A stretch of DNA of 64,000 nucleotides. Origin: a virus. The position numbers and the translations under genes were made by a program. The notes beneath the pieces are model-generated. The model was not told where the DNA came from. It saw only the letters and a list, made by a program, of their open reading frames with translations, and made no database searches. Shown in pieces: positions 2,517 through 55,202 of the stretch (the stretch's first letter is position 1; each line of letters begins with the position of its first letter). The stretch covers positions 7,714 to 71,713 of IMG/VR virus record IMGVR_UViG_3300050120_000156. One strand, 5' to 3'.

Positions 2517-2948
2517 ATGACGAAGAACAGCAAACCGGCGAACGATCCCGATCAGAAAACCTATGATCCGAACAACCCGGTCCATGTGGCCGCCGTCGAA
2601 GAGCAGCGGCGACTGGCGGCGGAAGCCGAACAGGGCGGCGCAATTGCCGCTGCGCCGCGCAGCATCACCATCGCCGACGCGCCCGCCAGGATGCCCTTCG
2701 GCGTCATCAAGGAATGCAGCAACTGTGACGGCTTCCACCGCGCTCCGGCACCGAATCAGGAGCGCGGCCTCTGCCAGCGCCACCCGCCGACGCCGCTGTG
2801 CACCGGCATGCAGTCTGGGCCGGTCGGCCCGGTGCCGGTCATCAGCTCGTATTACCCGGTCGTCGGCGAGCACTCGAAATGCTCGGACTGGGTGGCGAAG
2901 GATGAGACGGCGGCCGTCGACTTCTCGACGCTGGGCGCAAAGCAGTGA
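2517..2948 (+). CDS. hypothetical protein with Cys motif (CSNC...GLCQRHPP...CSDW)
   Basis: AGGAG SD; Cys pattern seen in small phage zinc/Fe-S-like proteins. Confidence 0.75.
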   Translation: MTKNSKPANDPDQKTYDPNNPVHVAAVEEQRRLAAEAEQGGAIAAAPRSITIADAPARMPFGVIKECSNCDGFHRAPAPNQERGLCQRHPPTPLCTGMQSGPVGPVPVISSYYPVVGEHSKCSDWVAKDETAAVDFSTLGAKQ

Positions 2949-4466: not shown

Positions 4467-4526
4467 TTGTCCCGCCGAGCATTCTGCCGTAAATTGAATT
4501 GACCGAGCCCGGCGCGCCGCCGGGTT
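4467..4526 (+). promoter_or_regulatory. sigma70-like promoter plus GCGCC-loop hairpin (portal leader)
   Basis: TTGTCC-N17-TAAATT (4467-4495); CCCGGC-GCGCC-GCCGGG (4508-4524). Confidence 0.7.
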
Positions 4527-4587
4527 GATGCCTTACGCCGCTTCGCCCGCCGCCCGGGCCAGCCGCGCAACCTCAGCGGCGCGCCCC

Positions 4588-7050
4588 ATGGCAGACATCA
4601 CGATCCCGACCGATGACGGCGAAGTCTCGATCGTCGTCATCGACGCCGACGAGGCCAACGGCCAGGCGGTGATCGGGGAGGATGGCGTCTCGAGGCAGGA
4701 GACGCCGGACGGCGGCATCATCATCGACCTGGCACCCGAGGCCGACGAGCCCGACGAGAAGCCGCTGGCGTTCTACGACAACCTGCTGCCCAAGATCTCG
4801 GCCAGCACTTTGGCGACCATCGCCGACAATCTGCTGCGCGCCATCGAGGCGGACGAGCAGAGCCGGCAGGGCTGGCTGGACAACCGCGCCGAGGGCCTCG
4901 ACCTGTTGGCATTCAAGCTGGAAAAGCCCAAGGATGCCGGGCCCAGCGCCGGCGGCGGCCAAGGCATGTCGACGGTCCGCCATCCGATTCTGCAAGAGGC
5001 GGTGATCCGCTTCCAGTCGAACGCCTCGGCCGAGCTGCTGCCGACATCGGGTCCCGTCAAGGTGCGCGACGATACGCCGCCGAAGCCGCCGGCGGCGCAA
5101 ATGGCCGGCCTCGCCGCGGCGACCGGCATCCAACTGCCGCCGCCCGGCATCGGCGACAACGGCGGGCCGCCGCTCGACGAGCCGGACAGCAACCTGCTGG
5201 CCGAGGCGCTCGAAAAGGATCTCAACCACTACCTGACCGTCGTCGACCGCGGCTACCGTTCCGACACCGACCGCATGCTGTTCTGGGTCGGCTACGGCGG
5301 CTGCGCCTTCAAGAAGGTCTATCACTGCCCGATCCGGCGGATGCCGATCTCGCGCTCGGTCGACGCCAAGGATCTGATCGTCAACCACGCAGCCAACAGC
5401 ATCGAGGACTGCGGCCGGATCACCCATCGCATCATGATGCGGCGCTCCGAGCTCGCCCGCATGAAGATCGCCGGCGTCTATGTCCTGCCGCCGTCGCTGT
5501 TGTCGCAGAACGCGACGCCAACGCCGAACCAATACGACGACAAGATGAAGGAGGCGCAGGGCTTCACCTCGACATCATCGTCGAGCCCGGAGGACCAGCC
5601 TTACGAGATACTCGAATGCTACTGCGAGCTCAACATTCCGGGGCTCGAGCACGAGCTCGACGGCGAGCCCAGCGGTCTCGATCTGCCGTATCGCGTCACG
5701 ATCGAGCGCGAAACCAAGACCATCATCGAGGTGCGGCGGAACTGGCGCGAGGACGACGAGCAGTGCATCGCGAAACAGGTCTTCGTCAAATTTCCCTTCG
5801 TGCCGGCCGACGGCTTCTATGAGATCGGCCTCCTCAACATCCTCGGAAACGGCACCAAGGCGCTGACCGCGGCGTGGCGCATCATGTTGGACAGCGGCAT
5901 GTTCGCGTCGTTCCCAGGCTTCCTCTACGGAACGCAGGCCGGCCGGCAGCAGACCAACAACTTCATGGTGCCGCCGGGCGGCGGCGTGAAGATCGAGACC
6001 GGCGGCCAGAATATCCAGAACGTCGTGATGCCGCTGCCATACAAGTCGGTCGACCAGGGCTTCGTCGCCTTCATGGCGGCGATCGAGGCGACGCTGCAAC
6101 GGGTCGGCGGCACCGCCGAGTTGATGGTTGGTGAGGGCAAGCAGGATGCGCCGGTCGGGACGACGCTGGCGCTGATCGAGCAGGCGACGAAGATGCTGGC
6201 GGCGGTCCATATCCGGCTGCATGCCGCGCAATCGGAAGAGTTTCAGTTGCTCAAGGAGCGGTTGAAAGAGGATCCGAAGGCGTTTTTCGATGCGTTGAAG
6301 AAACGTGCATCGCATGCCTGGGAGGCCGCTGAGTTCCTCGACGCGCTGGAGACCTGCGATCTGGTGCCGGCGGCCGACCCGAACACCCCAAGCCACATGC
6401 ACCGCATCATGAAGGCGGTCTCGATCAAGCAGCTGCAGGGTGCGAGCCCGGGCCTCTACGATCCGAAGAAGGTCGACAGCCGCATCCTCTCCATGATCGG
6501 GGTCAGCGACCCGGAATCGCTCTTCGCGCCGGCACCGCCGGCCGGCGCGCAGCCGCCGGGACCACCGCAGGTGCCGATGGATCCGAACAAGATGGCGCAG
6601 ATCCAGGCGAAGGATCGCCAGTTGCAGCAGCAGGGCGCCGAGGCGCAGCAGGAGCTGGCGACCAAGGGCCAGATCGCCAAGAGCCAGGACACGGCGCGGC
6701 AGATGGAGGTCAACCAGGAGAGCCAGGACCGCGACGCCGACCGGAAGAGCCGCGAGAACATCGCCGCGGCGCGGGAGCGGACCGAGGCGATCCGCACCGC
6801 CGGCCAGCTCGTCGAGAAGGGCATCGATCCGAGCGACGTCCTCGAGGGTGCCGTCAAGGTGCTGGCGCCGGCGGGGTCCGATGCCTCGGCGCCGGCCGGG
6901 GTGTCGCCGCTGGGTGGTGCGCAGCAGCAGCCGCAGGCCGGTGCAGGCGGTGGTCAGGCGCAGCCCGGTCCCTTCGGTGGCCCGTTGCCCGAGGCGACGC
7001 CCAACGGCGCCCTGGCGCGGCCGCCGCAGGGGTGGACGCGGCCGATCTGA
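4588..7050 (+). CDS. portal protein with long Q/P/G-rich C-terminal extension
   Basis: HPILQEAVIRFQ, ELLPTSGPVK, GCAFKKVYH, APVGTTLALIEQ, VHIRLHAAQ, ADPNTPS are typical of this podophage portal family; start set at MADITIPT. Confidence 0.9.
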   Translation: MADITIPTDDGEVSIVVIDADEANGQAVIGEDGVSRQETPDGGIIIDLAPEADEPDEKPLAFYDNLLPKISASTLATIADNLLRAIEADEQSRQGWLDNRAEGLDLLAFKLEKPKDAGPSAGGGQGMSTVRHPILQEAVIRFQSNASAELLPTSGPVKVRDDTPPKPPAAQMAGLAAATGIQLPPPGIGDNGGPPLDEPDSNLLAEALEKDLNHYLTVVDRGYRSDTDRMLFWVGYGGCAFKKVYHCPIRRMPISRSVDAKDLIVNHAANSIEDCGRITHRIMMRRSELARMKIAGVYVLPPSLLSQNATPTPNQYDDKMKEAQGFTSTSSSSPEDQPYEILECYCELNIPGLEHELDGEPSGLDLPYRVTIERETKTIIEVRRNWREDDEQCIAKQVFVKFPFVPADGFYEIGLLNILGNGTKALTAAWRIMLDSGMFASFPGFLYGTQAGRQQTNNFMVPPGGGVKIETGGQNIQNVVMPLPYKSVDQGFVAFMAAIEATLQRVGGTAELMVGEGKQDAPVGTTLALIEQATKMLAAVHIRLHAAQSEEFQLLKERLKEDPKAFFDALKKRASHAWEAAEFLDALETCDLVPAADPNTPSHMHRIMKAVSIKQLQGASPGLYDPKKVDSRILSMIGVSDPESLFAPAPPAGAQPPGPPQVPMDPNKMAQIQAKDRQLQQQGAEAQQELATKGQIAKSQDTARQMEVNQESQDRDADRKSRENIAAARERTEAIRTAGQLVEKGIDPSDVLEGAVKVLAPAGSDASAPAGVSPLGGAQQQPQAGAGGGQAQPGPFGGPLPEATPNGALARPPQGWTRPI

Positions 7051-8124: not shown

Positions 8125-8294
8125 TGCGCGTCGCGCTGCCGATCGACCTGCACGGGCTCGACGACTTCATCGCTGCTGCGATCGAGGCGAAGCAGCGCGA
8201 GGTTGTCGCTCGCGCGGCCGCCGACGAGGGGTTCCGCGCCGTGACCGAGGAATGGCGTCGCCGCTGGGAAGCGCGGCAGGAGGGCGGCATATGA
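8121..8294 (+). CDS. hypothetical protein
   Basis: ATGA overlaps at both ends. Confidence 0.55.
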   Translation: MMRVALPIDLHGLDDFIAAAIEAKQREVVARAAADEGFRAVTEEWRRRWEARQEGGI

Positions 8295-8779
8295 TCGCCG
8301 CCAACCGCCGCCTGCACGACTGGGACTACACCAAGGGCACCTGCACCGGCTGCGCTCGCACGATCGACGACTTCTTGAAGGTCGGCGGCGTCGAGTGCGC
8401 CATGAGTTCCGTTGCGGCGCAGGGGCGGACGCACGATTTCGGGTTCTTTAGCAGCATCTGCCTCACATGCGGCGCGGCGCAGGCCGAGATCGTCGATGGC
8501 CTCCGATCGGCGGTGTGCAGCGGTCAGAAGCCGCGCGTCAGCGCCGCCGAGGATTTCGCCGTCATCCGCAGCCGCATGGCGACGATCGAGCGCGAGGAAT
8601 CGGCGGAGCGGCAGCGGGTGCCGGAGGAGATGATGGCGATGCTGCCGTTTCCGACGATGGATGAAGCCTTCAAGGCCTTCGTCGAGGATCAGGAGCGCTT
8701 CCACGCCATGCTGGTCGAAAGCATGTGCTTTTCGGCTCTGCGCGGGCTGTTTGATGGGAAGGCCGTGAGGAAGCAATGA
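8291..8779 (+). CDS. hypothetical protein with two HD(W/F)...CxxC repeats
   Basis: GGAGG SD; start at MIAANRR. Confidence 0.7.
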   Translation: MIAANRRLHDWDYTKGTCTGCARTIDDFLKVGGVECAMSSVAAQGRTHDFGFFSSICLTCGAAQAEIVDGLRSAVCSGQKPRVSAAEDFAVIRSRMATIEREESAERQRVPEEMMAMLPFPTMDEAFKAFVEDQERFHAMLVESMCFSALRGLFDGKAVRKQ

Positions 8780-9030
8780 CGGACGTCCCACACAGCGTCC
8801 TGCTCGTCGTCAACGGCTATGCCACTGCGCATGATCTCCGGCACAGCCTGCCGCCGGGATGGGTGGTCTTGCCGTTCTGCGGCGCGCTGCTGGGGTATCG
8901 GTTCGATCTCATCCTGCTGCCGAAATTCGACGATGAGGGCAGCGAGATGCGGCGTGCGCAGGCGCAGCAGTGGCTTCGCGAGAATCTCAGCATCAAGCTG
9001 GCGCCCGGCGGCAAGATCGTGAGGATCTGA
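8776..9030 (+). CDS. hypothetical protein
   Basis: GAGGA SD, ATGA overlap. Confidence 0.7.
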   Translation: MTDVPHSVLLVVNGYATAHDLRHSLPPGWVVLPFCGALLGYRFDLILLPKFDDEGSEMRRAQAQQWLRENLSIKLAPGGKIVRI

Positions 9031-9123
9031 CGCGCCGCCTACGTCCGACCGTCCGTTATCAATTATCATAATAATATCAATGGCTTGAATGCCATCTTCC
9101 CAGAATCGTCCGGCTCTTCGTCT

Positions 9124-9213
9124 TGGTGCGCAGGGCGGAGTTGAACCACCTTCGGCCGAAGCCTACCGGGCCGATCCGCCCTGCCTTTCCCGGCTCGCGC
9201 CGGCTGCCGCGCA
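9124..9213 (-). ncRNA. tRNA-like small RNA (T-arm, acceptor stem, CCA; degenerate anticodon arm)
   Basis: Minus strand TGCGCGG...GGTGG-TTCAACT-CCGCC-CTGCGCA-CCA; GGC-TTCG-GCC variable-arm hairpin; own promoter. Confidence 0.55.
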
Positions 9214-9217
9214 CCTG

Positions 9218-9246
9218 ATATAGCCGAACCGGCCGGTTGCACTCAA
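9218..9246 (-). promoter_or_regulatory. promoter for tRNA-like RNA
   Basis: TTGAGT-N17-CTATAT, close to the rhizobial sigma70 consensus CTTGAC-N17-CTATAT. Confidence 0.6.
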
Positions 9247-9424
9247 CATCTTGTCATCGCGCGACCGCGCGTGTAATGATGCGCGCGGTGGTTACATTTC
9301 CGCGTGCCGTGGAAACCTCCGCTGACGCTTCGACGGCTGGAACGCTCCGGCAGCTCGACGCAAGGAATGGGTGCCTCGCTCGCCTCGAGCCGGGATGCCT
9401 GTCGCGTCGAACCGGAGCGCAGCC

Positions 9425-10336
9425 ATGAACCACGCCGACCTCCGCAAGCAAGGCCACAAGGATCACGACCGCAAGCTGCAGCACATGGCTGGCGGCGGTC
9501 ATGTCGAGCGCGGCGGCAAGGCGATGCTGGAACGCGCCATGCGCGAGGACCGCAAGGAAGATGCGGCCATGGTCAAGAAGGCCGTGGCGCAACACGAATC
9601 ACACGACCATCCCGGCAAGTCGAAGACCAAGCTGCACCTCGCGACGGGTGGCCGCGCCGAAGACGCCAAGGCGCCGGCGAGGCTCGACCGGAAGGGGTTG
9701 AAGACCGGCGGCCGCGCCAAGAAGGGCGGTCACACGAATGTCAATGTGATCGTTGCGCCCGGTCACGGTGGCCAGCCGATGCCGATCCCGGTTCCGATGG
9801 GTGCCGGGCCCGGCGGTCCGCCGCCGATGATGCCGCCGCCGGGTGCCGGTGGTCCGCCGCCCGGTTTGGGTGGGCCGCCTCCGGGCATGGGCGCCATGCC
9901 GCCCCGTCCGATGCCGGGTCCGCCCGTCGGCGCCGGCGTCCCCGGCATGGGGATGCGAGCTCGCGGTGGCCGCGCCGGCTACAAGGCCGGCGGCGCCGTC
10001 GACGGCGATCAAGAGAACAAGCCTGCGACCGGCAAGGGCCGCGGCGACCAAGTCGGCGGTGCCGGCGGTGCCGAGGGTCGCCTCGAGAAGATCAAAGACT
10101 ACGGCGCGATGTCCGACAAGGTCGAGCGGAAACGCGGTGGCCGCACCGGGCGCGACATGGGCGGTGCCGCCGACATGAAGGATGTCGCCGGCTCGGCGCC
10201 GTCCAGCGGCGCGCCGAACGCGCCGACGGGGCCGGGGAGTGCGTCCATGGGCAAGGATGCGCCGGCGGCGGCGAAGCCGATCGATGCGAATTCTCCCATC
10301 CTGGGCGCGCCGCACCGCCGCGGCGGTCGCGCCTGA
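9425..10336 (+). CDS. basic Gly/Pro-rich protein with repeated xxGGR(A/T) motifs (probable head-internal protein)
   Basis: GGAG SD; ATGGRA, KTGGRA, ARGGRA, KAGGAV, KRGGRT, RRGGRA. Confidence 0.8.
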   Translation: MNHADLRKQGHKDHDRKLQHMAGGGHVERGGKAMLERAMREDRKEDAAMVKKAVAQHESHDHPGKSKTKLHLATGGRAEDAKAPARLDRKGLKTGGRAKKGGHTNVNVIVAPGHGGQPMPIPVPMGAGPGGPPPMMPPPGAGGPPPGLGGPPPGMGAMPPRPMPGPPVGAGVPGMGMRARGGRAGYKAGGAVDGDQENKPATGKGRGDQVGGAGGAEGRLEKIKDYGAMSDKVERKRGGRTGRDMGGAADMKDVAGSAPSSGAPNAPTGPGSASMGKDAPAAAKPIDANSPILGAPHRRGGRA

Positions 10337-10551
10337 TGGCAGGCGATCGCGTCACCTCGGCGCCGCGCGGCAGTTGGCCCGACGCGCCGAAGGGCAACCA
10401 GGACGCGCTCCCCTGCGCGCCGCCGGAAGCCGCCGCCGACTACTACAAGAATCTCGACATCAACTCGGCGCGGGACAAGGCGAACGCCCGCGTCGCCGGT
10501 GTCGCGCAGTACAAGACCGGCGGCGAGCCCGGCCAGGGGAAGCGCCGCTGA
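10336..10551 (+). CDS. hypothetical protein (YKTGG motif)
   Basis: TGATG coupling; MAGDRVTSAP. Confidence 0.7.
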   Translation: MAGDRVTSAPRGSWPDAPKGNQDALPCAPPEAAADYYKNLDINSARDKANARVAGVAQYKTGGEPGQGKRR

Positions 10552-11081
10552 TGCCGGTGAAACTCAGCGCAATTGCCGAGTTGCTGGCTCCAGCCGTGAG
10601 CCATCTCTGCCCCGGTGGATATGTCGACATCGATTTCGACACCGATACTGTCGTGATGAAGATCGGAGCACAGAGCAGGCTCCTGGCGACGCGGATCGAG
10701 GTCGATGACAACGTCTATCAGGTGCGTGCGCAGGCGCGCATCAAGGCGTTCGCCGAGGACAAGCCGGAACCGACATTCGGCCCGATGGATTTCATCGGCA
10801 TCAAGCTCGGTCCGAACGGCATCGAGCCAACCGGCAAGGTGTCCGACGCGCCGCTGACCTACTTCTTCCCGACCTCGACCATCGATCAGTGCATCGCGCT
10901 CGTCGAGAAGGCCGCGCTGGATGCCCGGGCGCCGAACGGTCTCCGCGTCATCGTCGTCCCGGTCGAGCGGAAGCGCGCCATCGTCATGGAGGCGATCAGC
11001 AAGATGCTGCACGGCTCGCCGATCGACCTGCTCGAGGGCGACTACCTCTCCATCTACGACCGCGAGAAGCCGAAGACCTGA
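10551..11081 (+). CDS. hypothetical protein
   Basis: TGATG coupling; MPVKLSAIAE. Confidence 0.75.
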   Translation: MPVKLSAIAELLAPAVSHLCPGGYVDIDFDTDTVVMKIGAQSRLLATRIEVDDNVYQVRAQARIKAFAEDKPEPTFGPMDFIGIKLGPNGIEPTGKVSDAPLTYFFPTSTIDQCIALVEKAALDARAPNGLRVIVVPVERKRAIVMEAISKMLHGSPIDLLEGDYLSIYDREKPKT

Positions 11082-15068: not shown

Positions 15069-15983
15069 ATGCCCGTCCAACTCTCTTCGATCGCCAACCT
15101 GCTCTTCCCGGGCCTCATGGAGGTCACCGGCAAGTACAAGCAGATCCCGCGGCAGTACGACAAGATCTTCGCCTTCCGGCGCTCGAACATGGCGCTGGAA
15201 CGCACCACGGAAATGGCGTTCCTCGGCCTTGCCAAGCAGAAGGCGGAGGGTGCGCCGACGTCGTTCGACAACAGCGCCGGCCAGCGCTTCACCTACAACC
15301 AGGAGCACATCGAGCTCGCCAGCGGCTACGCCATCACCCGCAAGGCGATCGATGACAACCTCTACAAGGCGCAGTTCCAGCCGTCGAACCTCGGCCTCAT
15401 GGAGGCCTTCGTCCAGACGAAGGAGATCTACGGCGCCAACGTCCTCAACACCGGCAACGTCCCCGACCCCAATGTCGGCGGCGACGGCCAGCCGCTGTTC
15501 TCGACGGTGCATCCGGTCGACACCGGCAGCTACGCCAACACGCCGTCCGTCCAGGCGGACCTCAACGAGACCTCGCTGCTCGCCGGCATGATCTCGATCC
15601 GGTCGCAGTTCCTCGACCAGCGCGGCCTCCGCATGTTCTCGCGCGCCAAGAAGCTGATCATCCCGTCCTCGCTCGAGCCGGTGGCGATCCGCCTGCTCAA
15701 CACCGAGCTGCGGCCCGGGACGGCGAACAACGATGTCAACGCGATCCGTAGCACCGCCGGCGGCCTCGCCGAGGGCTACATGGTCGACGACTACCTGACG
15801 TCGCCCTATGCGTGGTTCCTGCTGACCAACATCAGCGGCCTCAACTACATGCAGCGGGTCGATTATGAGACCGATATGCAGGTGGACTTCACCACGGATA
15901 ATCTCCTCGTGAAGGCGTATGAGCGCTTCAGCTTCAATTATTCGAATCCGCGCGCAGCGTATGGCAGCTTTCCGACTTCGTAA
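15069..15983 (+). CDS. major capsid protein (Mu gpT-like, HK97 fold)
   Basis: LLFPGL, KAEGA, ITRKAIDDNLY, QTKEIYGANVLN, GDGQPLFSTVHP, RPGTANNDVNA, YLTSPYAWFL, ERFSF. Confidence 0.92.
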   Translation: MPVQLSSIANLLFPGLMEVTGKYKQIPRQYDKIFAFRRSNMALERTTEMAFLGLAKQKAEGAPTSFDNSAGQRFTYNQEHIELASGYAITRKAIDDNLYKAQFQPSNLGLMEAFVQTKEIYGANVLNTGNVPDPNVGGDGQPLFSTVHPVDTGSYANTPSVQADLNETSLLAGMISIRSQFLDQRGLRMFSRAKKLIIPSSLEPVAIRLLNTELRPGTANNDVNAIRSTAGGLAEGYMVDDYLTSPYAWFLLTNISGLNYMQRVDYETDMQVDFTTDNLLVKAYERFSFNYSNPRAAYGSFPTS

Positions 15984-51884: not shown

Positions 51885-51903
51885 CGATCGCAAGGGGTGC
51901 GAC

Positions 51904-51934
51904 GGGCGGCGGCCGAAGGGTCGCCGCCCTTTTT
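51904..51934 (+). terminator. rho-independent terminator ending the late arm
   Basis: GGGCGGCGGCC-GAAG-GGTCGCCGCCC then TTTTT; lies between convergent genes. Confidence 0.85.
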
Positions 51935-52399
51935 CTATTCCTGCAGAGCGGCGATTTCCGATATGGCGGACAGCATAATCTCCACGGCGCGGCAGGCGAC
52001 CTCTGGGGTGATATCGAACCATTCTCCTGATCGGCGATACCGCGCCAGCGCGACGTGCAGGAGCGGCTCGATGTGCTTTGCCGCCACCCTTGTGATCTGA
52101 CGATGCAGCACGAGGATCGCGCCGTGCGGGTTGTCGACCCTGAGATTGCTGAACCTGAGATAGAGGTTGGAGGCGATTCAGATCTTCACCAAGCCAGAGG
52201 ATTCTATCACGTAGATGAAGGTATCGTCCGGGCTTGATGGTGCCTGCGGGACGCGGACGACGGGTACCTCGGCCTCGTCAGACTCATCGACGACGGGTGC
52301 GATGGATGCAAGATGCTTGGCCGCAGCCTCCGCCACGGCGGCGACAGACCACCGATCTTCGCGGAGCGGAAGCCCATTCTCGAATTCGTTCAACGCCAT
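51935..52399 (-). pseudogene. T5orf172/MUG113-like GIY-YIG protein interrupted by an in-frame TGA
   Basis: FIYVIESSGLVKI*IASNLYLRFSNLRVDNP...IEPLLH..L..YR.SGEWF; TGA at 52178-52180 replaces the Gly of KIG. Confidence 0.8.
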
Positions 52400-52450
52400 C
52401 TATAAATCCCGCTCTGCTCGAATTGAAAAAAGGCTCGTCGCGCGATCGGA

Positions 52451-53070
52451 TGTGCCGGCTTCTGTGCGCTAGGGAACCGCGTCGCCAAGACAGCAATCAT
52501 ACCCTATCCACGCTCTGAAAGCCGCAGAAAACCGCCATTCCTTAGGCTTCCTGCGGCTTCCTTAGCAGTGGTGTGTATGGTTTGCTAAACCGTTATACTG
52601 GGAAACCGGTATCGTGAGTTCGAATCTCATCCCCTCCGCCAACCCATTGTTCCTAAGCATATTTATCGGTTGAATGCGCCTCTGGCGTGTTCAATCGGCC
52701 TGAGAAACCGCCGCCTCTGTGCCGACAAACGTGCCAGGCATGGCATCCGATCCGATGCGCTTCGCGATTTGCTGCTCGGCCGGCGTCAGGTAGCGGAGAT
52801 AGACCTCCGTCGTCTTGATCGACTCGTGCCCGAGGATCTGCTGGCAGTCGTAGATCGAGCCGCCGCGGCGGAGATAATCGACGGCATACCAGTGGCGCAG
52901 ATCGTGGAATTTGAAGCGCCGGAAGTCCTTCCCGTCCTTGATTGCCTTGGCTGCGACGCGTCTGACGATCGCGGCGAATCGGCTCGAGACGTTGGCGTAG
53001 CGTTCGCCCTTGCCGTGCCAGAAGACGTACCGCGATTTGATGTGCGGGACTGTGCCGGCAATTGTGCCGA
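52451..53070. repeat. three pairs of 12-bp-spaced TGTGCCG-like direct repeats (integrase arm-site candidates)
   Basis: 52451/52463, 52718/52730, 53051/53063. Confidence 0.55.
52577..52641 (+). other. attP core: 3' portion of tRNA-Ser(GCT)
   Basis: Anticodon arm ATGGT-TTGCTAA-ACCGT, long variable arm, GTGAG-TTCGAAT-CTCAT T-arm, CCCCTCC-G-CCA; 5' acceptor and D-arm absent; adjacent to integrase 3' end. Confidence 0.9.
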
Positions 53071-53761
53071 CGGCTCGATCGTCGAGCGGTACCGAGCGCG
53101 GTCGCCGTGTCTTCGTTTTCGTGAGATCGATGGCGCGGCGCTTCAGGTTCGTCTGCGGCCGTTCCAGGCTGGCGATCTCCTCCTCGCGCATGCCGGTGAA
53201 CTGGGCGGTCAAGATCATCTTGGCGAAGTTCCCTGGTGCGTTGGCGACGACCATGGCGATGTGCTCGGGCTCCGGCAGCGCGATCGGATCGCGCCGCTCC
53301 TTGATCGAAGACCGGCTCCGCTCTCGAGCTGGGTTGTCGTCGCGCCAACCCTTGGCGACGGTCCATTCGATGACCGACGATACGGCGGTCAGGTCGCGGC
53401 GCCGCGTCGCGTTGGTGATGCCGGCGCGGCCGGCGATCTGGCCCATGGTCTTCTTGGTGATCTCGTCGACGTGCATGTCGTCGAGGATCGTCCTGCACTG
53501 TCCGAGCGAGACGAGGTAGCGCTGGATCGTGCTGGTGCCGAGATGGTCGCTGGCGTTCTCTGCCCAGCCCTTGACGGCGTCCTGCCAGGAATGGCGCTCC
53601 TCACCGTGGTAGCGAAAATGCTCGACCTCGCCGAGCATCGCTTTCAGGCGCTTTTTTGCTTCCGCGAGAACAGCCGTTCGTAGGCTGCGTCGAACGTCCT
53701 TCCCGTGAACTTGGATGCGTGCCCACCAAGTTTCACCACGCCGATAGAGATTGTCTGGCAT
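52691..53761 (-). CDS. int: tyrosine integrase
   Basis: FTGMREEEI, KTK, FHDLRHWYA, ILGHESIKTTEVY catalytic R-K-H-R-H-Y. Confidence 0.95.
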   Translation of the reverse strand: MPDNLYRRGETWWARIQVHGKDVRRSLRTAVLAEAKKRLKAMLGEVEHFRYHGEERHSWQDAVKGWAENASDHLGTSTIQRYLVSLGQCRTILDDMHVDEITKKTMGQIAGRAGITNATRRRDLTAVSSVIEWTVAKGWRDDNPARERSRSSIKERRDPIALPEPEHIAMVVANAPGNFAKMILTAQFTGMREEEIASLERPQTNLKRRAIDLTKTKTRRPRSVPLDDRAVGTIAGTVPHIKSRYVFWHGKGERYANVSSRFAAIVRRVAAKAIKDGKDFRRFKFHDLRHWYAVDYLRRGGSIYDCQQILGHESIKTTEVYLRYLTPAEQQIAKRIGSDAMPGTFVGTEAAVSQAD

Positions 53762-54010: not shown

Positions 54011-54985
54011 TTAAGCGAGCACGACCTTGCGGTGTGCCTCCGCCACGAAGTCGGCGATCCATGCATGGTCTGGCTCATCGGGCAGGCTCGAGCGCTCGGC
54101 AGCCGCCTCGACATCGACCAGCAGCTGCTCGATATCGGCGGCGACCTCCTGGTACGGTATCCGGCCCAGCTTGATATCGAGAATGTGCGCCGCATCGGGC
54201 AGCGGGAAGGTGACGCGCGCCGTCGTCAGCAGCTCGATCGCCTGGCGCCCGACGCGAACGGCATGCGACAGGGCCTTCCAGTCGACGCCCTGCTGCGCCT
54301 CGGCCTTGAGCGCGCGGTGACCGTATTCCCGGACCAGCGCTTCCATGATGCCGTGGGCGAGCTTGATCGTCGCCGTGAAGGGCATCTTGCGGCCGCAGAC
54401 ATCGAGGTGCGGGATGGTGGCGCCGCTGACCTGCGGGACATCGATCATCGCCATGTGCTCGGTCTCGGCCGCCATGGCACTCACGGCATCGCCGACGACG
54501 CCGAGCTTCACCACGGTGCCATGCTCTTCCAACGCTGCGGTTAGGAAATCGAGTGCCTTGCGCGCGGCTGCGACGCGGGAACCCTTGATGCCGTATTTGT
54601 TGGCCTGCTGGCGACAGTAGCCGATGAAGGATGCCGACTTCCTGGTGAGCAGCCGCGGCGTCGCCGCGCGGATCGCCAGCCATTCCCGCGCCGGCACCGC
54701 CTCGAGCGCCCAGTCTGGCGCGAACAGCATGTCGAGCGCGACCGTCTGCCCCTCGGCGACGAGGCCGAGGAAGCGCTGCAGGCTGTAGCTCTCCTCGTCG
54801 ATCTCGCCGGCGAAATTCTTCTCGCCTTCAGCCTTCGCGCGTTTCGTAGAAACCGAGCCCTTGACGCGTTGCAACAAGATATCCCGCGCGCTCGGAAGGA
54901 ATACGCCTTTCAGGTCGATATCGGACTGCGGGGTGGCCGTGCCATAGAGGTGCGACCCGAACTTGATTCTGACGATTGGCTTCAT
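54011..54985 (-). CDS. Pol-beta superfamily nucleotidyltransferase (Nuc-transf / RlaP-like)
   Basis: FGSHLYGTATPQSDIDLKGVFLP; GYCRQQANKYG; DWKALSHAVR; LL.IK.G. Confidence 0.9.
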   Translation of the reverse strand: MKPIVRIKFGSHLYGTATPQSDIDLKGVFLPSARDILLQRVKGSVSTKRAKAEGEKNFAGEIDEESYSLQRFLGLVAEGQTVALDMLFAPDWALEAVPAREWLAIRAATPRLLTRKSASFIGYCRQQANKYGIKGSRVAAARKALDFLTAALEEHGTVVKLGVVGDAVSAMAAETEHMAMIDVPQVSGATIPHLDVCGRKMPFTATIKLAHGIMEALVREYGHRALKAEAQQGVDWKALSHAVRVGRQAIELLTTARVTFPLPDAAHILDIKLGRIPYQEVAADIEQLLVDVEAAAERSSLPDEPDHAWIADFVAEAHRKVVLA

Positions 54986-55202
54986 GGCTCTCTTGCTCCG
55001 GTAGATCATCAAACGCGGTGATTGCGGCGACGCCGACGATCAGGACTTCCTCGGTGCCTTTGGCGCCCCAGGACACGCCGAATCGGCCGGCGGACCAGTA
55101 TCGGAAGAGGGCCGTCAGCTGCCGGTCGTCGACCCAGCCGCGGACGACGCGTGCACCAAAGAACGTGCCGATCTCCCAGTCATCTATCGTGCGTCGCTTC
55201 AC
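54828..55202 (-). CDS. hypothetical protein
   Basis: Fills gap with GTG start; long overlap with next gene makes the 3' end doubtful. Confidence 0.35.
   Translation of the reverse strand: MKRRTIDDWEIGTFFGARVVRGWVDDRQLTALFRYWSAGRFGVSWGAKGTEEVLIVGVAAITAFDDLPEQESHEANRQNQVRVAPLWHGHPAVRYRPERRIPSERAGYLVATRQGLGFYETREG

What the first reader, a model, noticed from the sequence alone, without database searches (positions are those of the whole stretch)
9124..9246. Promoter-driven tRNA-like RNA with degenerate anticodon arm, antisense to the late region
Seen on the minus strand: TTGAGT-N17-CTATAT, then TGCGCGGCAGCCGGCGCGAGCCGGGAAAGGCAGGGCGGATCGGCCCGGTAGGCTTCGGCCGAAGGTGGTTCAACTCCGCCCTGCGCACCA. It has a canonical T-arm (GGTGG-TTCAACT-CCGCC), an acceptor-like stem and a terminal CCA; the stem is 6 bp if that CCA is the true end. 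It also has a GCC..GGC D-like stem enclosing a GCGA-tetraloop hairpin and a C(UUCG)G variable arm. The anticodon position holds only GGGC-GGATCG-GCCC, with no 7-nt U-turn loop. Caveat: GCAGGGCGGA (9184-9175) can pair perfectly with TCCGCCCTGC in the T/acceptor strand, giving a competing rod fold. Inference: a non-decoding tRNA mimic (e.g. decoy for anticodon nucleases or tRNA-sensing defences), a bistable RNA, or a decayed class II tRNA.
Basis: partly seen in the sequence, partly recalled or inferred. Interest (0 to 1): 0.7.

Follow-up and report, generated by a model that had tools for sequence, protein, structure and literature searches.

The report
Orphan anticodon-less tRNA-shaped RNA in phage
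A temperate soil/peat phage carries, in a gap between its structural genes, a 90-base stretch that has the top half of a transfer RNA but no usable anticodon arm; it is probably a real small tRNA-mimic RNA gene, but it has no detectable relatives outside very close strains and its function is untested.

Summary
The sequence is exactly as described. It lies on the minus strand in a 394-nt non-coding gap (9031-9424) between plus-strand genes of an uncultured temperate podovirus-like phage. The T arm is canonical. It directly abuts an acceptor stem of 8-9 flawless pairs. That combination occurs once in the window and in 1 of 300 simulated windows.

No tRNA model accepts it. ARAGORN at default finds nothing. 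Rfam finds nothing at gathering score. The best weak hit is tRNA-Sec at 22.8 bits, the level of ordinary tRNAs cross-hitting that model. The anticodon arm is 3 nt short and has no U33.

A rod fold and the cloverleaf differ by only 1.8 kcal/mol.

Two related strains in public runs keep 9134-9343 at 89-95% identity, against 83-88% for the flanks. A third strain has other DNA there. No covariation test was possible. No homologue was found in 80 portal-related phage loci, IMG/VR, JGI metagenomes or GTDB genomes.

The nearest look-alike is an unannotated 68-nt top-half tRNA mimic in Xanthomonas phages.

It is probably a non-decoding tRNA-derived RNA gene (0.45). A decoy role is untested. Interest is moderate.

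The parts
9124..9215 (-). tRNA-shaped RNA candidate, 90-92 nt
   Evidence: Sequence read. Rfam tRNA-Sec hit of 22.8 bits over 9126-9214. It is the only T-arm-plus-acceptor hit in the window. ARAGORN calls it only at -ps85.
9207..9215 (-). Acceptor 5' strand GGUGCGCGG. It pairs with 9125-9133.
   Evidence: Nine pairs with one G.U (one search hit, n = 9). Pair probabilities are 1.0 for the outer 5 pairs.
9125..9133 (-). Acceptor 3' strand CUGCGCACC. The encoded CCA is 9126-9124.
   Evidence: In the related run X6 the alignment breaks exactly at 9133/9134.
9190..9203 (-). D-position hairpin CCGGC-GCGA-GCCGG (5 bp with a GNRA-type loop). The alternative is a 3-bp D stem 9204-9202 / 9185-9183.
   Evidence: Pair probabilities 0.94-0.99.
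9168..9181 (-). Anticodon-position hairpin GGGC-GGAUCG-GCCC (4 bp, 6-nt loop, no U33)
   Evidence: The arm is 14 nt rather than the canonical 17 nt. In the thermodynamic ensemble it is replaced by the rod (probability 0.02).
9154..9163 (-). Variable-arm-position hairpin GGC-UUCG-GCC
   Evidence: The same GGCUUCGGCCGA block precedes the T arm in the Xanthomonas-phage look-alike.
9134..9150 (-). T arm GGUGG-UUCAACU-CCGCC, with a canonical T loop and a G53-C61 pair
   Evidence: The identical 17-mer occurs in 3 genuine phage tRNAs and 2 tRNA-Phe 3' halves in IMG/VR.
9175..9184 (-). Rival strand GCAGGGCGGA. It pairs perfectly with 9139-9130 and destroys the T arm (rod fold).
   Evidence: The MFE fold uses it. 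A helix of at least 10 bp occurs in 27 of 2000 shuffles.
9217..9246 (-). Promoter-like TTGAGT-N17-CTATAT. It can also be read as TTGAGTG-N15-GCTATATC.
   Evidence: The sigma-70 scan does not call it. It is the only TTG..GCTANAWC match in the window. The GCTANAWC motif is recalled from the Caulobacter promoter literature and was not checked in a paper.
9068..9096 (-). Terminator-like hairpin GAUGGC-AUUCAA-GCCAUU followed by an AU-rich tail
   Evidence: 6 pairs, 3 of them G-C; weak.

Best explanation
The stretch 9215-9124 (minus strand) is a small RNA gene derived from a tRNA, most likely a long-variable-arm (class II or Sec-like) type. Its upper half is intact: the acceptor stem, the T arm, and a hairpin at the variable-arm position. 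Its lower half has been rebuilt into short, very stable hairpins that cannot read a codon.

It sits in a variable accessory slot between structural genes of a temperate phage and is transcribed antisense to them, from its own weak promoter to a weak terminator.

Inferred mechanism, not shown:
- The RNA presents a tRNA-like acceptor/T-arm 'top half' to proteins that recognise tRNAs by that half. Examples are RNase P, the CCA-adding enzyme, class-II synthetases that ignore the anticodon, and tRNA-end-modifying toxins or repair enzymes.
- It thereby acts as a mimic or sponge rather than as an adaptor in translation.
- The internal strand 9184-9175 can capture the T-arm 3' strand, so the RNA may toggle between a tRNA-like form and a rod form.
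For: 1. The tRNA-like architecture is unlikely by chance. A canonical T loop with G53-C61, a 5-bp T stem and a directly abutting 9-bp acceptor occur once in the window, and in 1 of 300 simulated windows. The Rfam tRNA-Sec hit has E = 0.063.
2. It lies in a 394-nt gap with no coding signal, between plus-strand genes 8776-9030 and 9425-10336.
3. All 26 proposed pairs are standard pairs. Two of them are G.U (U9148.G9136 and G9208.U9132). These would be A.C mismatches on the plus strand, which favours the minus strand.
4. Two loops are of the extra-stable kinds (GCGA, and UUCG closed by C-G). This looks rebuilt rather than decayed. This is read from the sequence. That these two loop classes are extra-stable is recalled from the literature and comes from no call.
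5. Promoter-like and terminator-like signals flank it in the correct orientation.
6. Local conservation in related strains:
- Run X6 keeps 9134-9421 with 26 differences and 6 gaps in 288 nt. Its neighbouring coding pieces show 18 differences in 107 nt and 31 in 190 nt.
- Run X5 keeps 9185-9343 with 8 differences in 159 nt. Its flanks show 51 differences plus 5 gaps in 331 nt, and 28 plus 6 in 294 nt.
7. It is not the att site. An integrase and a separate tRNA 3' fragment lie at 52.6 kb.
8. A look-alike design exists in 12 cultured Xanthomonas/Xylella phages. It has an acceptor, a cUUCGg hairpin and a GGUGGUUCAA T arm. The model R1 scores it 33.6 and 29.6 bits, against 15-22 bits for genuine tRNAs with the same T arm. 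It folds cleanly (z = -2.65). It sits beside sub-threshold YrlA-like tRNA mimics.
Against: - No expression data exist. No RNA run is listed.
- No covariation test was possible.
- No homologue was found in:
  - 80 portal-related IMG/VR loci, where the best other hit was 19.8 bits in coding-looking DNA;
  - 26 whole records of those relatives;
  - six IMG/VR pattern scans (and the protein-seeded);
  - two JGI metagenome scans;
  - one GTDB scan, which gave only a chance hit inside a coding frame.
- In X6 the alignment stops exactly at the border between the T stem and the 3' acceptor strand. There, 9032-9133 is replaced by 106 unalignable letters, so the acceptor pairing may not be conserved.
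- In X2 the whole element (9032-9239) is not alignable.
- The conserved block also contains a plus-strand promoter-like site and a palindrome, so its conservation need not concern the RNA.
- The ensemble favours the rod. The T-arm pair probability is 0.02.
- Folding z-scores are unremarkable and equal on both strands.
- The promoter fails the sigma-70 scan.
Confidence: 0.45

Rival explanations
1. It is a decayed tRNA pseudogene. A once-functional class-II phage tRNA lost 3 nt of its anticodon arm and now drifts without function in a variable slot.
For: The anticodon arm is 14 nt instead of 17. U8, A14 and U33 are missing. All tRNA models reject it. It is absent or unalignable in the X2 strain, and X6 breaks at the acceptor border. 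Distribution is orphan. Mukai et al. 2017 describe inactive allo-tRNA pseudogenes with disrupted stems (PMC5389517, section 16 read).
Against: None of the five helices has a mismatch, and the loops are of the extra-stable classes. Decay usually breaks stems first. The stretch is locally better conserved than the neighbouring genes in X5 and X6. Related phages place their genuine tRNAs elsewhere: upstream of the portal on the plus strand in 7 of the 60 loci scanned.
Confidence: 0.2
2. It is not tRNA-related. The GC-rich inverted repeats form a rod-like hairpin, as RNA on either strand or as DNA. That hairpin belongs to the conserved regulatory region in front of the 9425 operon, as an operator, processing site or attenuator. 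On this view the T-loop match is chance.
For: The MFE and centroid folds are the rod. The 10-bp perfect helix occurs in only 27 of 2000 shuffles. The plus strand folds equally well (-46.1 kcal/mol, z = -1.97). The adjacent 9240-9421 is highly conserved in three strains and carries a plus-strand promoter-like site and an 11-bp palindrome. A scan of about 250,000 windows would be expected to turn up chance tRNA look-alikes at a rate of about 0.3% per window.
Against: The T loop, G53-C61 and a flush acceptor occurring together are rare (1 of 300 simulated windows). The rod fold does not explain them. Two G.U pairs favour the minus strand. X2 keeps the regulatory block from 9240 onward but not the element, so the two are separable.
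Confidence: 0.2
3. It is a working but irregular decoding tRNA, allo-tRNA-like or Sec-like. One example is the ARAGORN reading tRNA(CGG) with a long variable arm.
For: ARAGORN at -ps85 draws a class-II cloverleaf with the 7-nt loop GGCGGAU and anticodon CGG. The 8/5 branch and the 5-bp D hairpin with a 4-nt loop recall tRNA-Sec and allo-tRNAs (PMC5389517, section 13 read). Such tRNAs occur in peat and soil bacteria and in alphaproteobacterial phages (same paper).
Against: That fold needs G32 and G33, an A.G mismatch, a shifted acceptor with a C.C mismatch and two G.U pairs, and a 4-bp T stem. It evaluates at -15.6 kcal/mol against -48.3 for the D-hairpin cloverleaf. The tRNA-Sec score of 22.8 bits compares with 62-76 bits for the Sec-type hits listed from 151 Acidobacteriaceae genomes, 131 of which have a match over the cut-off. 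It is at the floor of ordinary tRNAs, which score 22-46 bits. There is no UCA anticodon. The branch has 13-14 bp, not the 12 bp (8/4 or 9/3) that defines allo-tRNAs.
Confidence: 0.05

Closest known systems
Allo-tRNAs and 'irregular tRNAs' of Acidobacteria, peat soils and alphaproteobacterial phages (Mukai et al. 2017, PMC5389517; abstract and sections 12-16 read, supplements closed)
   Same: They have a Sec-like D arm (long stem and tetraloop), a lengthened acceptor stem and an extra arm before the T arm. They come from soil and peat. Some members are inactive in translation and were suggested to be regulatory RNAs.
   Different: Allo-tRNAs have a 12-bp branch (8/4 or 9/3) and a normal 7-nt anticodon loop. 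Here the T stem has 5 bp (branch 13-14 bp) and the anticodon arm is 4 bp plus 6 nt. [quoted passage not shown] This element scores 22.8 bits.
Unannotated 68-nt element of Xanthomonas phage MET23-P3, Xylella phage Usme and 10 relatives (L135 1478-1545)
   Same: It has an acceptor of about 9 pairs starting GGUGCG, the block GGCUUCGGCCGA (a cUUCGg hairpin), then the T arm GGUGGUUCAA.UCC.CC flush with the acceptor 3' strand. It has no anticodon arm and lies in an unannotated gap. R1 scores 33.6 and 29.6 bits.
   Different: It has no D-position or anticodon-position hairpins; a 12-nt single strand takes their place. It sits in a cluster with a tRNA-Asn and YrlA-like RNAs on the coding strand. The host group differs. 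Homology is uncertain: the BLAST E-value was 0.02, and no bridging sequences were found in IMG/VR.
Bacterial and phage Y-RNA-like YrlA (Rfam RF02553)
   Same: It is a non-decoding RNA with a tRNA-like T arm, D arm and acceptor module. It is known in phages. Sub-threshold matches of 52.3 and 37.5 bits lie next to the Xanthomonas-phage look-alike.
   Different: YrlA has a permuted order, with its ends in a Ro-binding stem. The family gives no match in this phage record, and no TROVE/Rsr or RtcB gene is present.
tRNA-Sec (Rfam RF01852)
   Same: The acceptor/T branch can be read as 8/5, and the D hairpin has a 4-nt loop. This is the best Rfam match.
   Different: The score is 22.8 bits against a gathering score of 47. 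There is no UCA anticodon. Eight nucleotides separate the D and anticodon hairpins.
tmRNA tRNA-like domain
   Same: It consists of an acceptor plus T arm without an anticodon arm.
   Different: ARAGORN -m finds nothing and RF00023 gives no match. There is no tag reading frame and no pseudoknots.

Membership tests
Canonical tRNA (RF00005 / ARAGORN) | Model score at or above threshold | tested here: not met
   ARAGORN at default finds 0 genes in the window, and nothing at -ps95 or -ps90. The RF00005 search of the whole record reports only an 11.1-bit partial hit at the att site.
Canonical tRNA (RF00005 / ARAGORN) | 5-bp T stem, T loop UUCRANY, G53-C61, flush with an acceptor of at least 7 bp | tested here: met
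Canonical tRNA (RF00005 / ARAGORN) | 5-bp anticodon stem with a 7-nt loop, Y32-U33 and a purine at 37 | tested here: not met
   The arm is 4 bp with the 6-nt loop GGAUCG. The only 7-nt reading has G32 and G33 and a mismatch.
Canonical tRNA (RF00005 / ARAGORN) | U8, A14 and free G18-G19 in the D loop | tested here: inconclusive
   The element has C8 and G14. The run GGG 9191-9189 is free only in the 3-bp D-stem reading. That reading evaluates at -34.2 kcal/mol, against -48.3 for the D-hairpin reading.
tRNA-Sec (RF01852) | Score of at least 47 bits | tested here: not met
   The score is 22.8 bits. Ordinary tRNAs of one bacterial genome score 22.2-46.4 bits on this model. Listed Sec-type hits score 62-76 bits.
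tRNA-Sec (RF01852) | UCA anticodon | tested here: not met
tRNA-Sec (RF01852) | 13-bp branch (8/5 or 9/4) and a 6-bp D stem with a 4-nt loop | tested here: inconclusive
   An 8/5 reading is possible. The D hairpin has 5 bp plus a G.G, with loop GCGA.
Allo-tRNA (Mukai 2017) | 12-bp branch as 8/4 or 9/3 | tested here: not met
   The T stem has 5 standard pairs and the acceptor has 8-9, giving 13-14 bp.
Allo-tRNA (Mukai 2017) | Sequence-level similarity to published allo-tRNAs | not testable with these tools
   The sequences are in supplementary files, which are closed. No allo-tRNA model was built.
tmRNA | Match to the tmRNA model or ARAGORN tmRNA mode | tested here: not met
YrlA | Match to RF02553, and an Rsr or RtcB gene nearby | tested here: not met
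Phage attP with a tRNA 3' fragment | Lies next to the integrase gene and is identical to a host tRNA 3' end | tested here: not met
   The integrase gene is at 52691-53761, with a separate tRNA 3' fragment at about 52606-52643. The element's 23-mer has no tRNA match in 185,579 species genomes.

The most novel reading that the evidence does not exclude
The element is a switchable, anticodon-less tRNA mimic. In one fold it shows an acceptor/T-arm top half ending in CCA, with discriminator A73 and an extra arm. That form could be processed, and possibly aminoacylated, by enzymes that ignore the anticodon. In the other fold an internal pseudo-strand (9184-9175) swallows the T arm and hides that identity. 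The phage would use it as a regulated sponge or substrate. The target would be a host tRNA-end-targeting defence toxin or an RNA-repair enzyme. The phage itself encodes an RlaP-type RNA-repair nucleotidyltransferase. Together with the Xanthomonas-phage 68-nt element, it would define an undescribed class of phage 'top-half' tRNA mimics.
Probability: 0.12. Interest if true: 0.75.

Novelty: new variant of a known kind. Interest (0 to 1): 0.42.

Why it matters
Phage tRNAs are now seen as counter-measures to tRNA-targeting defences. One example is PMC10264068; I saw only the search listing and the start of its abstract. RNAs that keep only the enzyme-recognition half of a tRNA would point to a different tactic: mimicry rather than replacement.

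If this element and the Xanthomonas-phage look-alike are expressed and conserved in structure, they would add a new, unannotated class to the small set of bacterial and phage tRNA mimics (tmRNA, YrlA, inactive allo-tRNAs). They would also give a testable handle on which host or phage proteins read the tRNA top half during infection.

As it stands, the element is an orphan with no expression or covariation evidence, so its value is as a lead.

Tried and rejected
1. **attP or captured host tRNA end: rejected.** The integrase gene and a separate tRNA 3' fragment lie at 52.6 kb. The element's T-arm-plus-acceptor 23-mer hit only one place in the GTDB species genomes. That place lies inside a coding frame (YRWWFNSALRSN).

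2. **tmRNA, YrlA or Sec machinery: rejected**.

3. **Homologues among relatives: none found.**
- The single-protein scans found nothing. One search used a start that was off by one base (9424), which gave a junk frame. The correct gene is 9425-10336.
- The portal alignment A1 gave 80 IMG/VR loci at 41-51% portal identity.
- ARAGORN was run on 60 of the 80 loci. It found ordinary tRNAs in 7 loci, all upstream of the portal on the plus strand.
- The model R1 was run on all 80 loci plus the window. Only the self hit appeared. The L025 hit (19.8 bits) lies in coding-looking DNA and was judged chance.
- R1 on 26 whole records gave 0 hits. The other 54 loci already covered their whole short contigs or nearly so.

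4. **Pattern scans.**
- Empty.
- One search gave 2 loci with no R1 or ARAGORN hit.
- One search gave 11 loci with the T-arm 17-mer: 3 ordinary tRNAs, 2 tRNA-Phe 3' halves, 4 coding-looking places, one tRNA with a 47-nt insert in the anticodon loop (L124, RF00005 39.6 bits), and one irregular tRNA-like element (L128, no Rfam hit). None is a whole-length homologue.

5. **Host guess Acidobacteriaceae: not supported.** The att tRNA fragment was found in 0 of 301 genomes of that family searched, at up to 2 mismatches.

6. **RNA evidence.** No RNA holder is listed. Parts of the region without cover in runs X2 and X4 are not used as evidence.

7. **Letter-level variants in X5 and X6 for 9134-9215.**

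8. **Earlier notes of this scan** gave no look-alike by sequence.

9. **Literature.** Searches found no description of this element type in phages. That claim rests on those three searches only.

10. **Calibration of the tRNA-Sec model** includes hits from two genomes flagged unpublished (G029 and G052).

11. **Supplementary files of PMC5389517** (allo-tRNA sequences and structures) are closed and may bear on the allo-tRNA comparison.
Full report
**What is there**

The window is part of an IMG/VR virus record of 71,713 bases, rated 82% complete, with 65.6% G+C. Annotated or inferred features:
- a portal gene at 4525-7050 and a major head protein gene at 15069-15983;
- a 4341-codon ORF;
- a tyrosine integrase gene at 52691-53761 on the minus strand;
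- next to it, an RlaP-type RNA-repair nucleotidyltransferase gene at 54011-55012.

Cultured relatives are distant. The portal reaches at most 45% identity in 18 phage records, among them Caulobacter, Roseobacter and Pelagibacter podoviruses.

The finding lies in a 394-nt gap (9031-9424) between plus-strand genes 8776-9030 and 9425-10336. The gap shows no third-position G+C signal.

**Is it tRNA-like beyond chance?**

The T arm GGUGG-UUCAACU-CCGCC is canonical. It is flush with an acceptor helix of 8 pairs (G9214-C9126 to G9207-C9133), or 9 with G9215-C9125, containing a single G.U.

A scan for 'canonical T arm plus abutting acceptor of at least 7 bp' finds exactly one hit in the window. It finds a hit in 1 of 300 Markov-simulated windows.

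No tRNA model accepts it:
- ARAGORN at default finds no gene in the window. Nothing appears at -ps95 or -ps90. A strained 'tRNA-Pro(cgg)' appears at -ps85.
- Rfam at gathering scores finds nothing.
- At E up to 10 the best match is tRNA-Sec at 22.8 bits, against a gathering score of 47.
- That score is generic. Ordinary tRNAs of one bacterial genome score 22.2-46.4 bits on the Sec model. The Sec-type hits listed from 151 Acidobacteriaceae genomes score 62-76 bits, and 131 of those genomes have a match over the cut-off. Two of those genomes, G029 and G052, are flagged unpublished, and the claim does not depend on them.
- RF00005, tmRNA and YrlA searches of the whole record do not report the element.

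**Anatomy**

Two readings of the 5' half are possible.
- Sec-like or allo-like reading: 2 nt, then the 5-bp hairpin CCGGC-GCGA-GCCGG.
- Class-II reading: C8, A9, the D stem GCC/GGC (9204-9202 / 9185-9183), a 14-nt loop containing GGG, then A26.

In both readings the anticodon position holds only GGGC-GGAUCG-GCCC. That is 14 nt instead of 17, with no U33. A cUUCGg hairpin follows at the variable-arm position.

ViennaRNA evaluation:

| Fold | kcal/mol |
|---|---|
| MFE rod | -50.1 |
| Cloverleaf with 9-bp acceptor and D hairpin | -48.3 |
| 8/5 version | -44.3 |
| Class-II D-stem version | -34.2 |
| ARAGORN fold | -15.6 |

The rod uses the 10-bp perfect pairing 9184-9175 with 9139-9130. A perfect helix that long arises in 27 of 2000 shuffles. 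In the ensemble the T arm has probability 0.02. Thermodynamics alone therefore does not choose the tRNA fold, as is often the case for unmodified tRNA transcripts.

Folding z-scores are unremarkable and similar on both strands. Two G.U pairs, one in the T stem and one in the acceptor, would be A.C on the plus strand. This mildly favours the minus strand.

**Transcription signals**

The same DNA reads TTGAGTG-N15-GCTATATC. The second part fits the GCTANAWC -10 motif that I recall for Caulobacter housekeeping promoters. That motif is recalled, not checked in a paper. This is the only such combination in the window.

A weak terminator-like hairpin with an AU-rich tail follows the element on the same strand (9096-9079).

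A plus-strand promoter-like site (TTGTCA-N18-AATGAT, 9251-9280) and an 11-bp palindrome (9264-9289) lie back to back with the element's promoter-like site.

**Relatives**

The portal has many homologues.

- Eighty IMG/VR loci with portals of 41-51% identity contain no counterpart. The single-sequence covariance model R1 finds only itself at 124.8 bits. The next best is 19.8 bits, in coding-looking DNA.
- Twenty-six whole records of those relatives give nothing.
- The tRNAs of those relatives sit upstream of the portal on the plus strand, in 7 of the 60 loci scanned.

Public runs hold related strains. Laid on 8200-10200:
- X6 aligns 8925-9031. Then 106 unalignable letters stand in place of 9032-9133. 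Then it aligns 9134-9421, with 26 differences and 6 gaps.
- X5 has one contig on 8794-9124 and another on 9185-9343, the latter with 8 differences in 159 nt.
- X2 aligns up to 8763, then a 26-nt piece at 9006-9031, and resumes at 9240.

From this:
- The element lies in a variable slot.
- It is present in at least two strains and is better conserved there than the neighbouring genes.
- In X6 the similarity ends exactly where the 3' acceptor strand begins.
- The letter-level table was cut, so no covariation count was possible.

**Wider searches**

Exact and degenerate pattern scans found no whole-length homologue in IMG/VR, JGI metagenomes or GTDB genomes. The T-arm 17-mer is shared with genuine phage tRNAs and with tRNA-Phe 3' halves. 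This shows that the T arm is of ordinary tRNA type.

A relaxed BLAST against cultured phages found a 30-33-nt match (E = 0.02 to 0.9) in unannotated gaps of Xanthomonas and Xylella phages. There a 68-nt element has an acceptor starting GGUGCG, a 12-nt single strand, a cUUCGg hairpin and a GGUGGUUCAAGUCCACC T arm.
- R1 scores it 33.6 and 29.6 bits. Genuine tRNAs with the identical T arm score 15-22 bits.
- Its MFE fold is exactly that three-way junction, with z = -2.65 and -2.85.
- The hairpin base pair differs between two phages as U-A against C-G.
- It sits beside two sub-threshold YrlA-like matches (52.3 and 37.5 bits) and a tRNA-Asn.
- Only 12 near-identical records carry it, and no bridging sequence exists in IMG/VR. 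Homology with the window's element therefore remains open. The shared design is a tRNA top half without an anticodon arm.

**Interpretation**

The most likely reading (0.45) is a real, tRNA-derived, non-decoding small RNA gene in an accessory slot. It would work by presenting a tRNA top half to tRNA-recognising proteins.

What is shown:
- the architecture and its rarity by chance;
- the non-coding location;
- the strand hint from the two G.U pairs;
- local conservation in two strains;
- rejection by all decoding-tRNA criteria.

What is inferred: transcription, processing, and any binding partner or decoy role.

Enzymes that read the acceptor end or the elbow are better candidates.

Rivals:
- a drifting pseudogene (0.2);
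- a rod-shaped regulatory structure unrelated to tRNA (0.2);
- an irregular decoding tRNA (0.05);
- the remainder is pure chance.

**Comparison with known families**

The closest described kinds are the allo-tRNAs and irregular tRNAs of peat and soil bacteria and alphaproteobacterial phages. Some of these are inactive in translation (PMC5389517; abstract and sections 12-16 read). The element fails their defining 8/4 or 9/3 branch and their 7-nt anticodon loop.

It is not tRNA-Sec, tmRNA, YrlA or an att fragment, by the tests listed in the membership table.

Notes from earlier agents of this scan describe other 'anticodon-less tRNA mimics' in phages. I did not test them, and they are leads only.

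**Verdict**

The element is a new variant of a known kind (phage and bacterial tRNA-like RNAs). Interest is moderate (0.42), because the element is an orphan without expression or covariation evidence.

Noticed in passing
window 51885-52690 (core about 52606-52643): The gap beside the integrase gene holds a tRNA 3' fragment: a T arm GTGAG-TTCGAAT-CTCAT, then CCCCTCC, G, CCA. RF00005 gives a partial hit of 11.1 bits there. This is a likely attP. The G73 discriminator suggests a Ser-type tRNA; that is my inference. The fragment was not found in 301 Acidobacteriaceae genomes.
   Followed up: partly
window 54011-55012 (-): A phage gene matches RlaP, the RNA-repair-pathway polymerase-beta-type nucleotidyltransferase (PF10127, E = 9.9e-15). 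No RtcB or TROVE gene is in the record. It is a possible link to tRNA or RNA-damage conflicts.
   Followed up: partly
window 9240-9421: This non-coding block upstream of gene 9425 is unusually conserved in three related strains. No differences to the X2 strain are listed for 9240-9293 or 9317-9375. The block contains a plus-strand promoter-like site TTGTCA-N18-AATGAT (9251-9280), which overlaps an 11-bp palindromic hairpin at 9264-9289.
   Followed up: partly
window 9425-11081: The third-position G+C signal moves through three successive plus-strand frames: 9425-10336, about 10340-10551, and about 10520-11081. These could be overlapping genes, a frameshift or an assembly error. The first product is a Gly/Pro-rich low-complexity protein.
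   Followed up: no
L124 6755-6867 (-): An IMG/VR phage contig carries a tRNA (RF00005, 39.6 bits) with a 47-nt insertion in the anticodon loop. ARAGORN does not call it.
   Followed up: partly
L128 4979-5079 (-): An IMG/VR phage contig carries a tRNA-like element of about 100 nt. It has a 7-bp acceptor GCCGCAG/CUGCGGC, a canonical D arm and T arm, and an expanded middle. Neither Rfam nor ARAGORN reports it.
   Followed up: partly
L135 1040-1760 (Xanthomonas phage MET23-P3), and L136: A 700-nt unannotated gap holds two sub-threshold YrlA-like (Y-RNA-like) matches (52.3 and 37.5 bits, gathering score 69), a mascRNA-like hit, a 68-nt top-half tRNA mimic and a tRNA-Asn. The gap is conserved in 12 Xanthomonas/Xylella phage records.
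   Followed up: partly
L122 10486-10579 and L130 about 2700-2790 (-): Two IMG/VR contigs carry the 3' half of a tRNA-Phe(GAA) ending CCTGGGCACCA. These are probably att sites.
   Followed up: no
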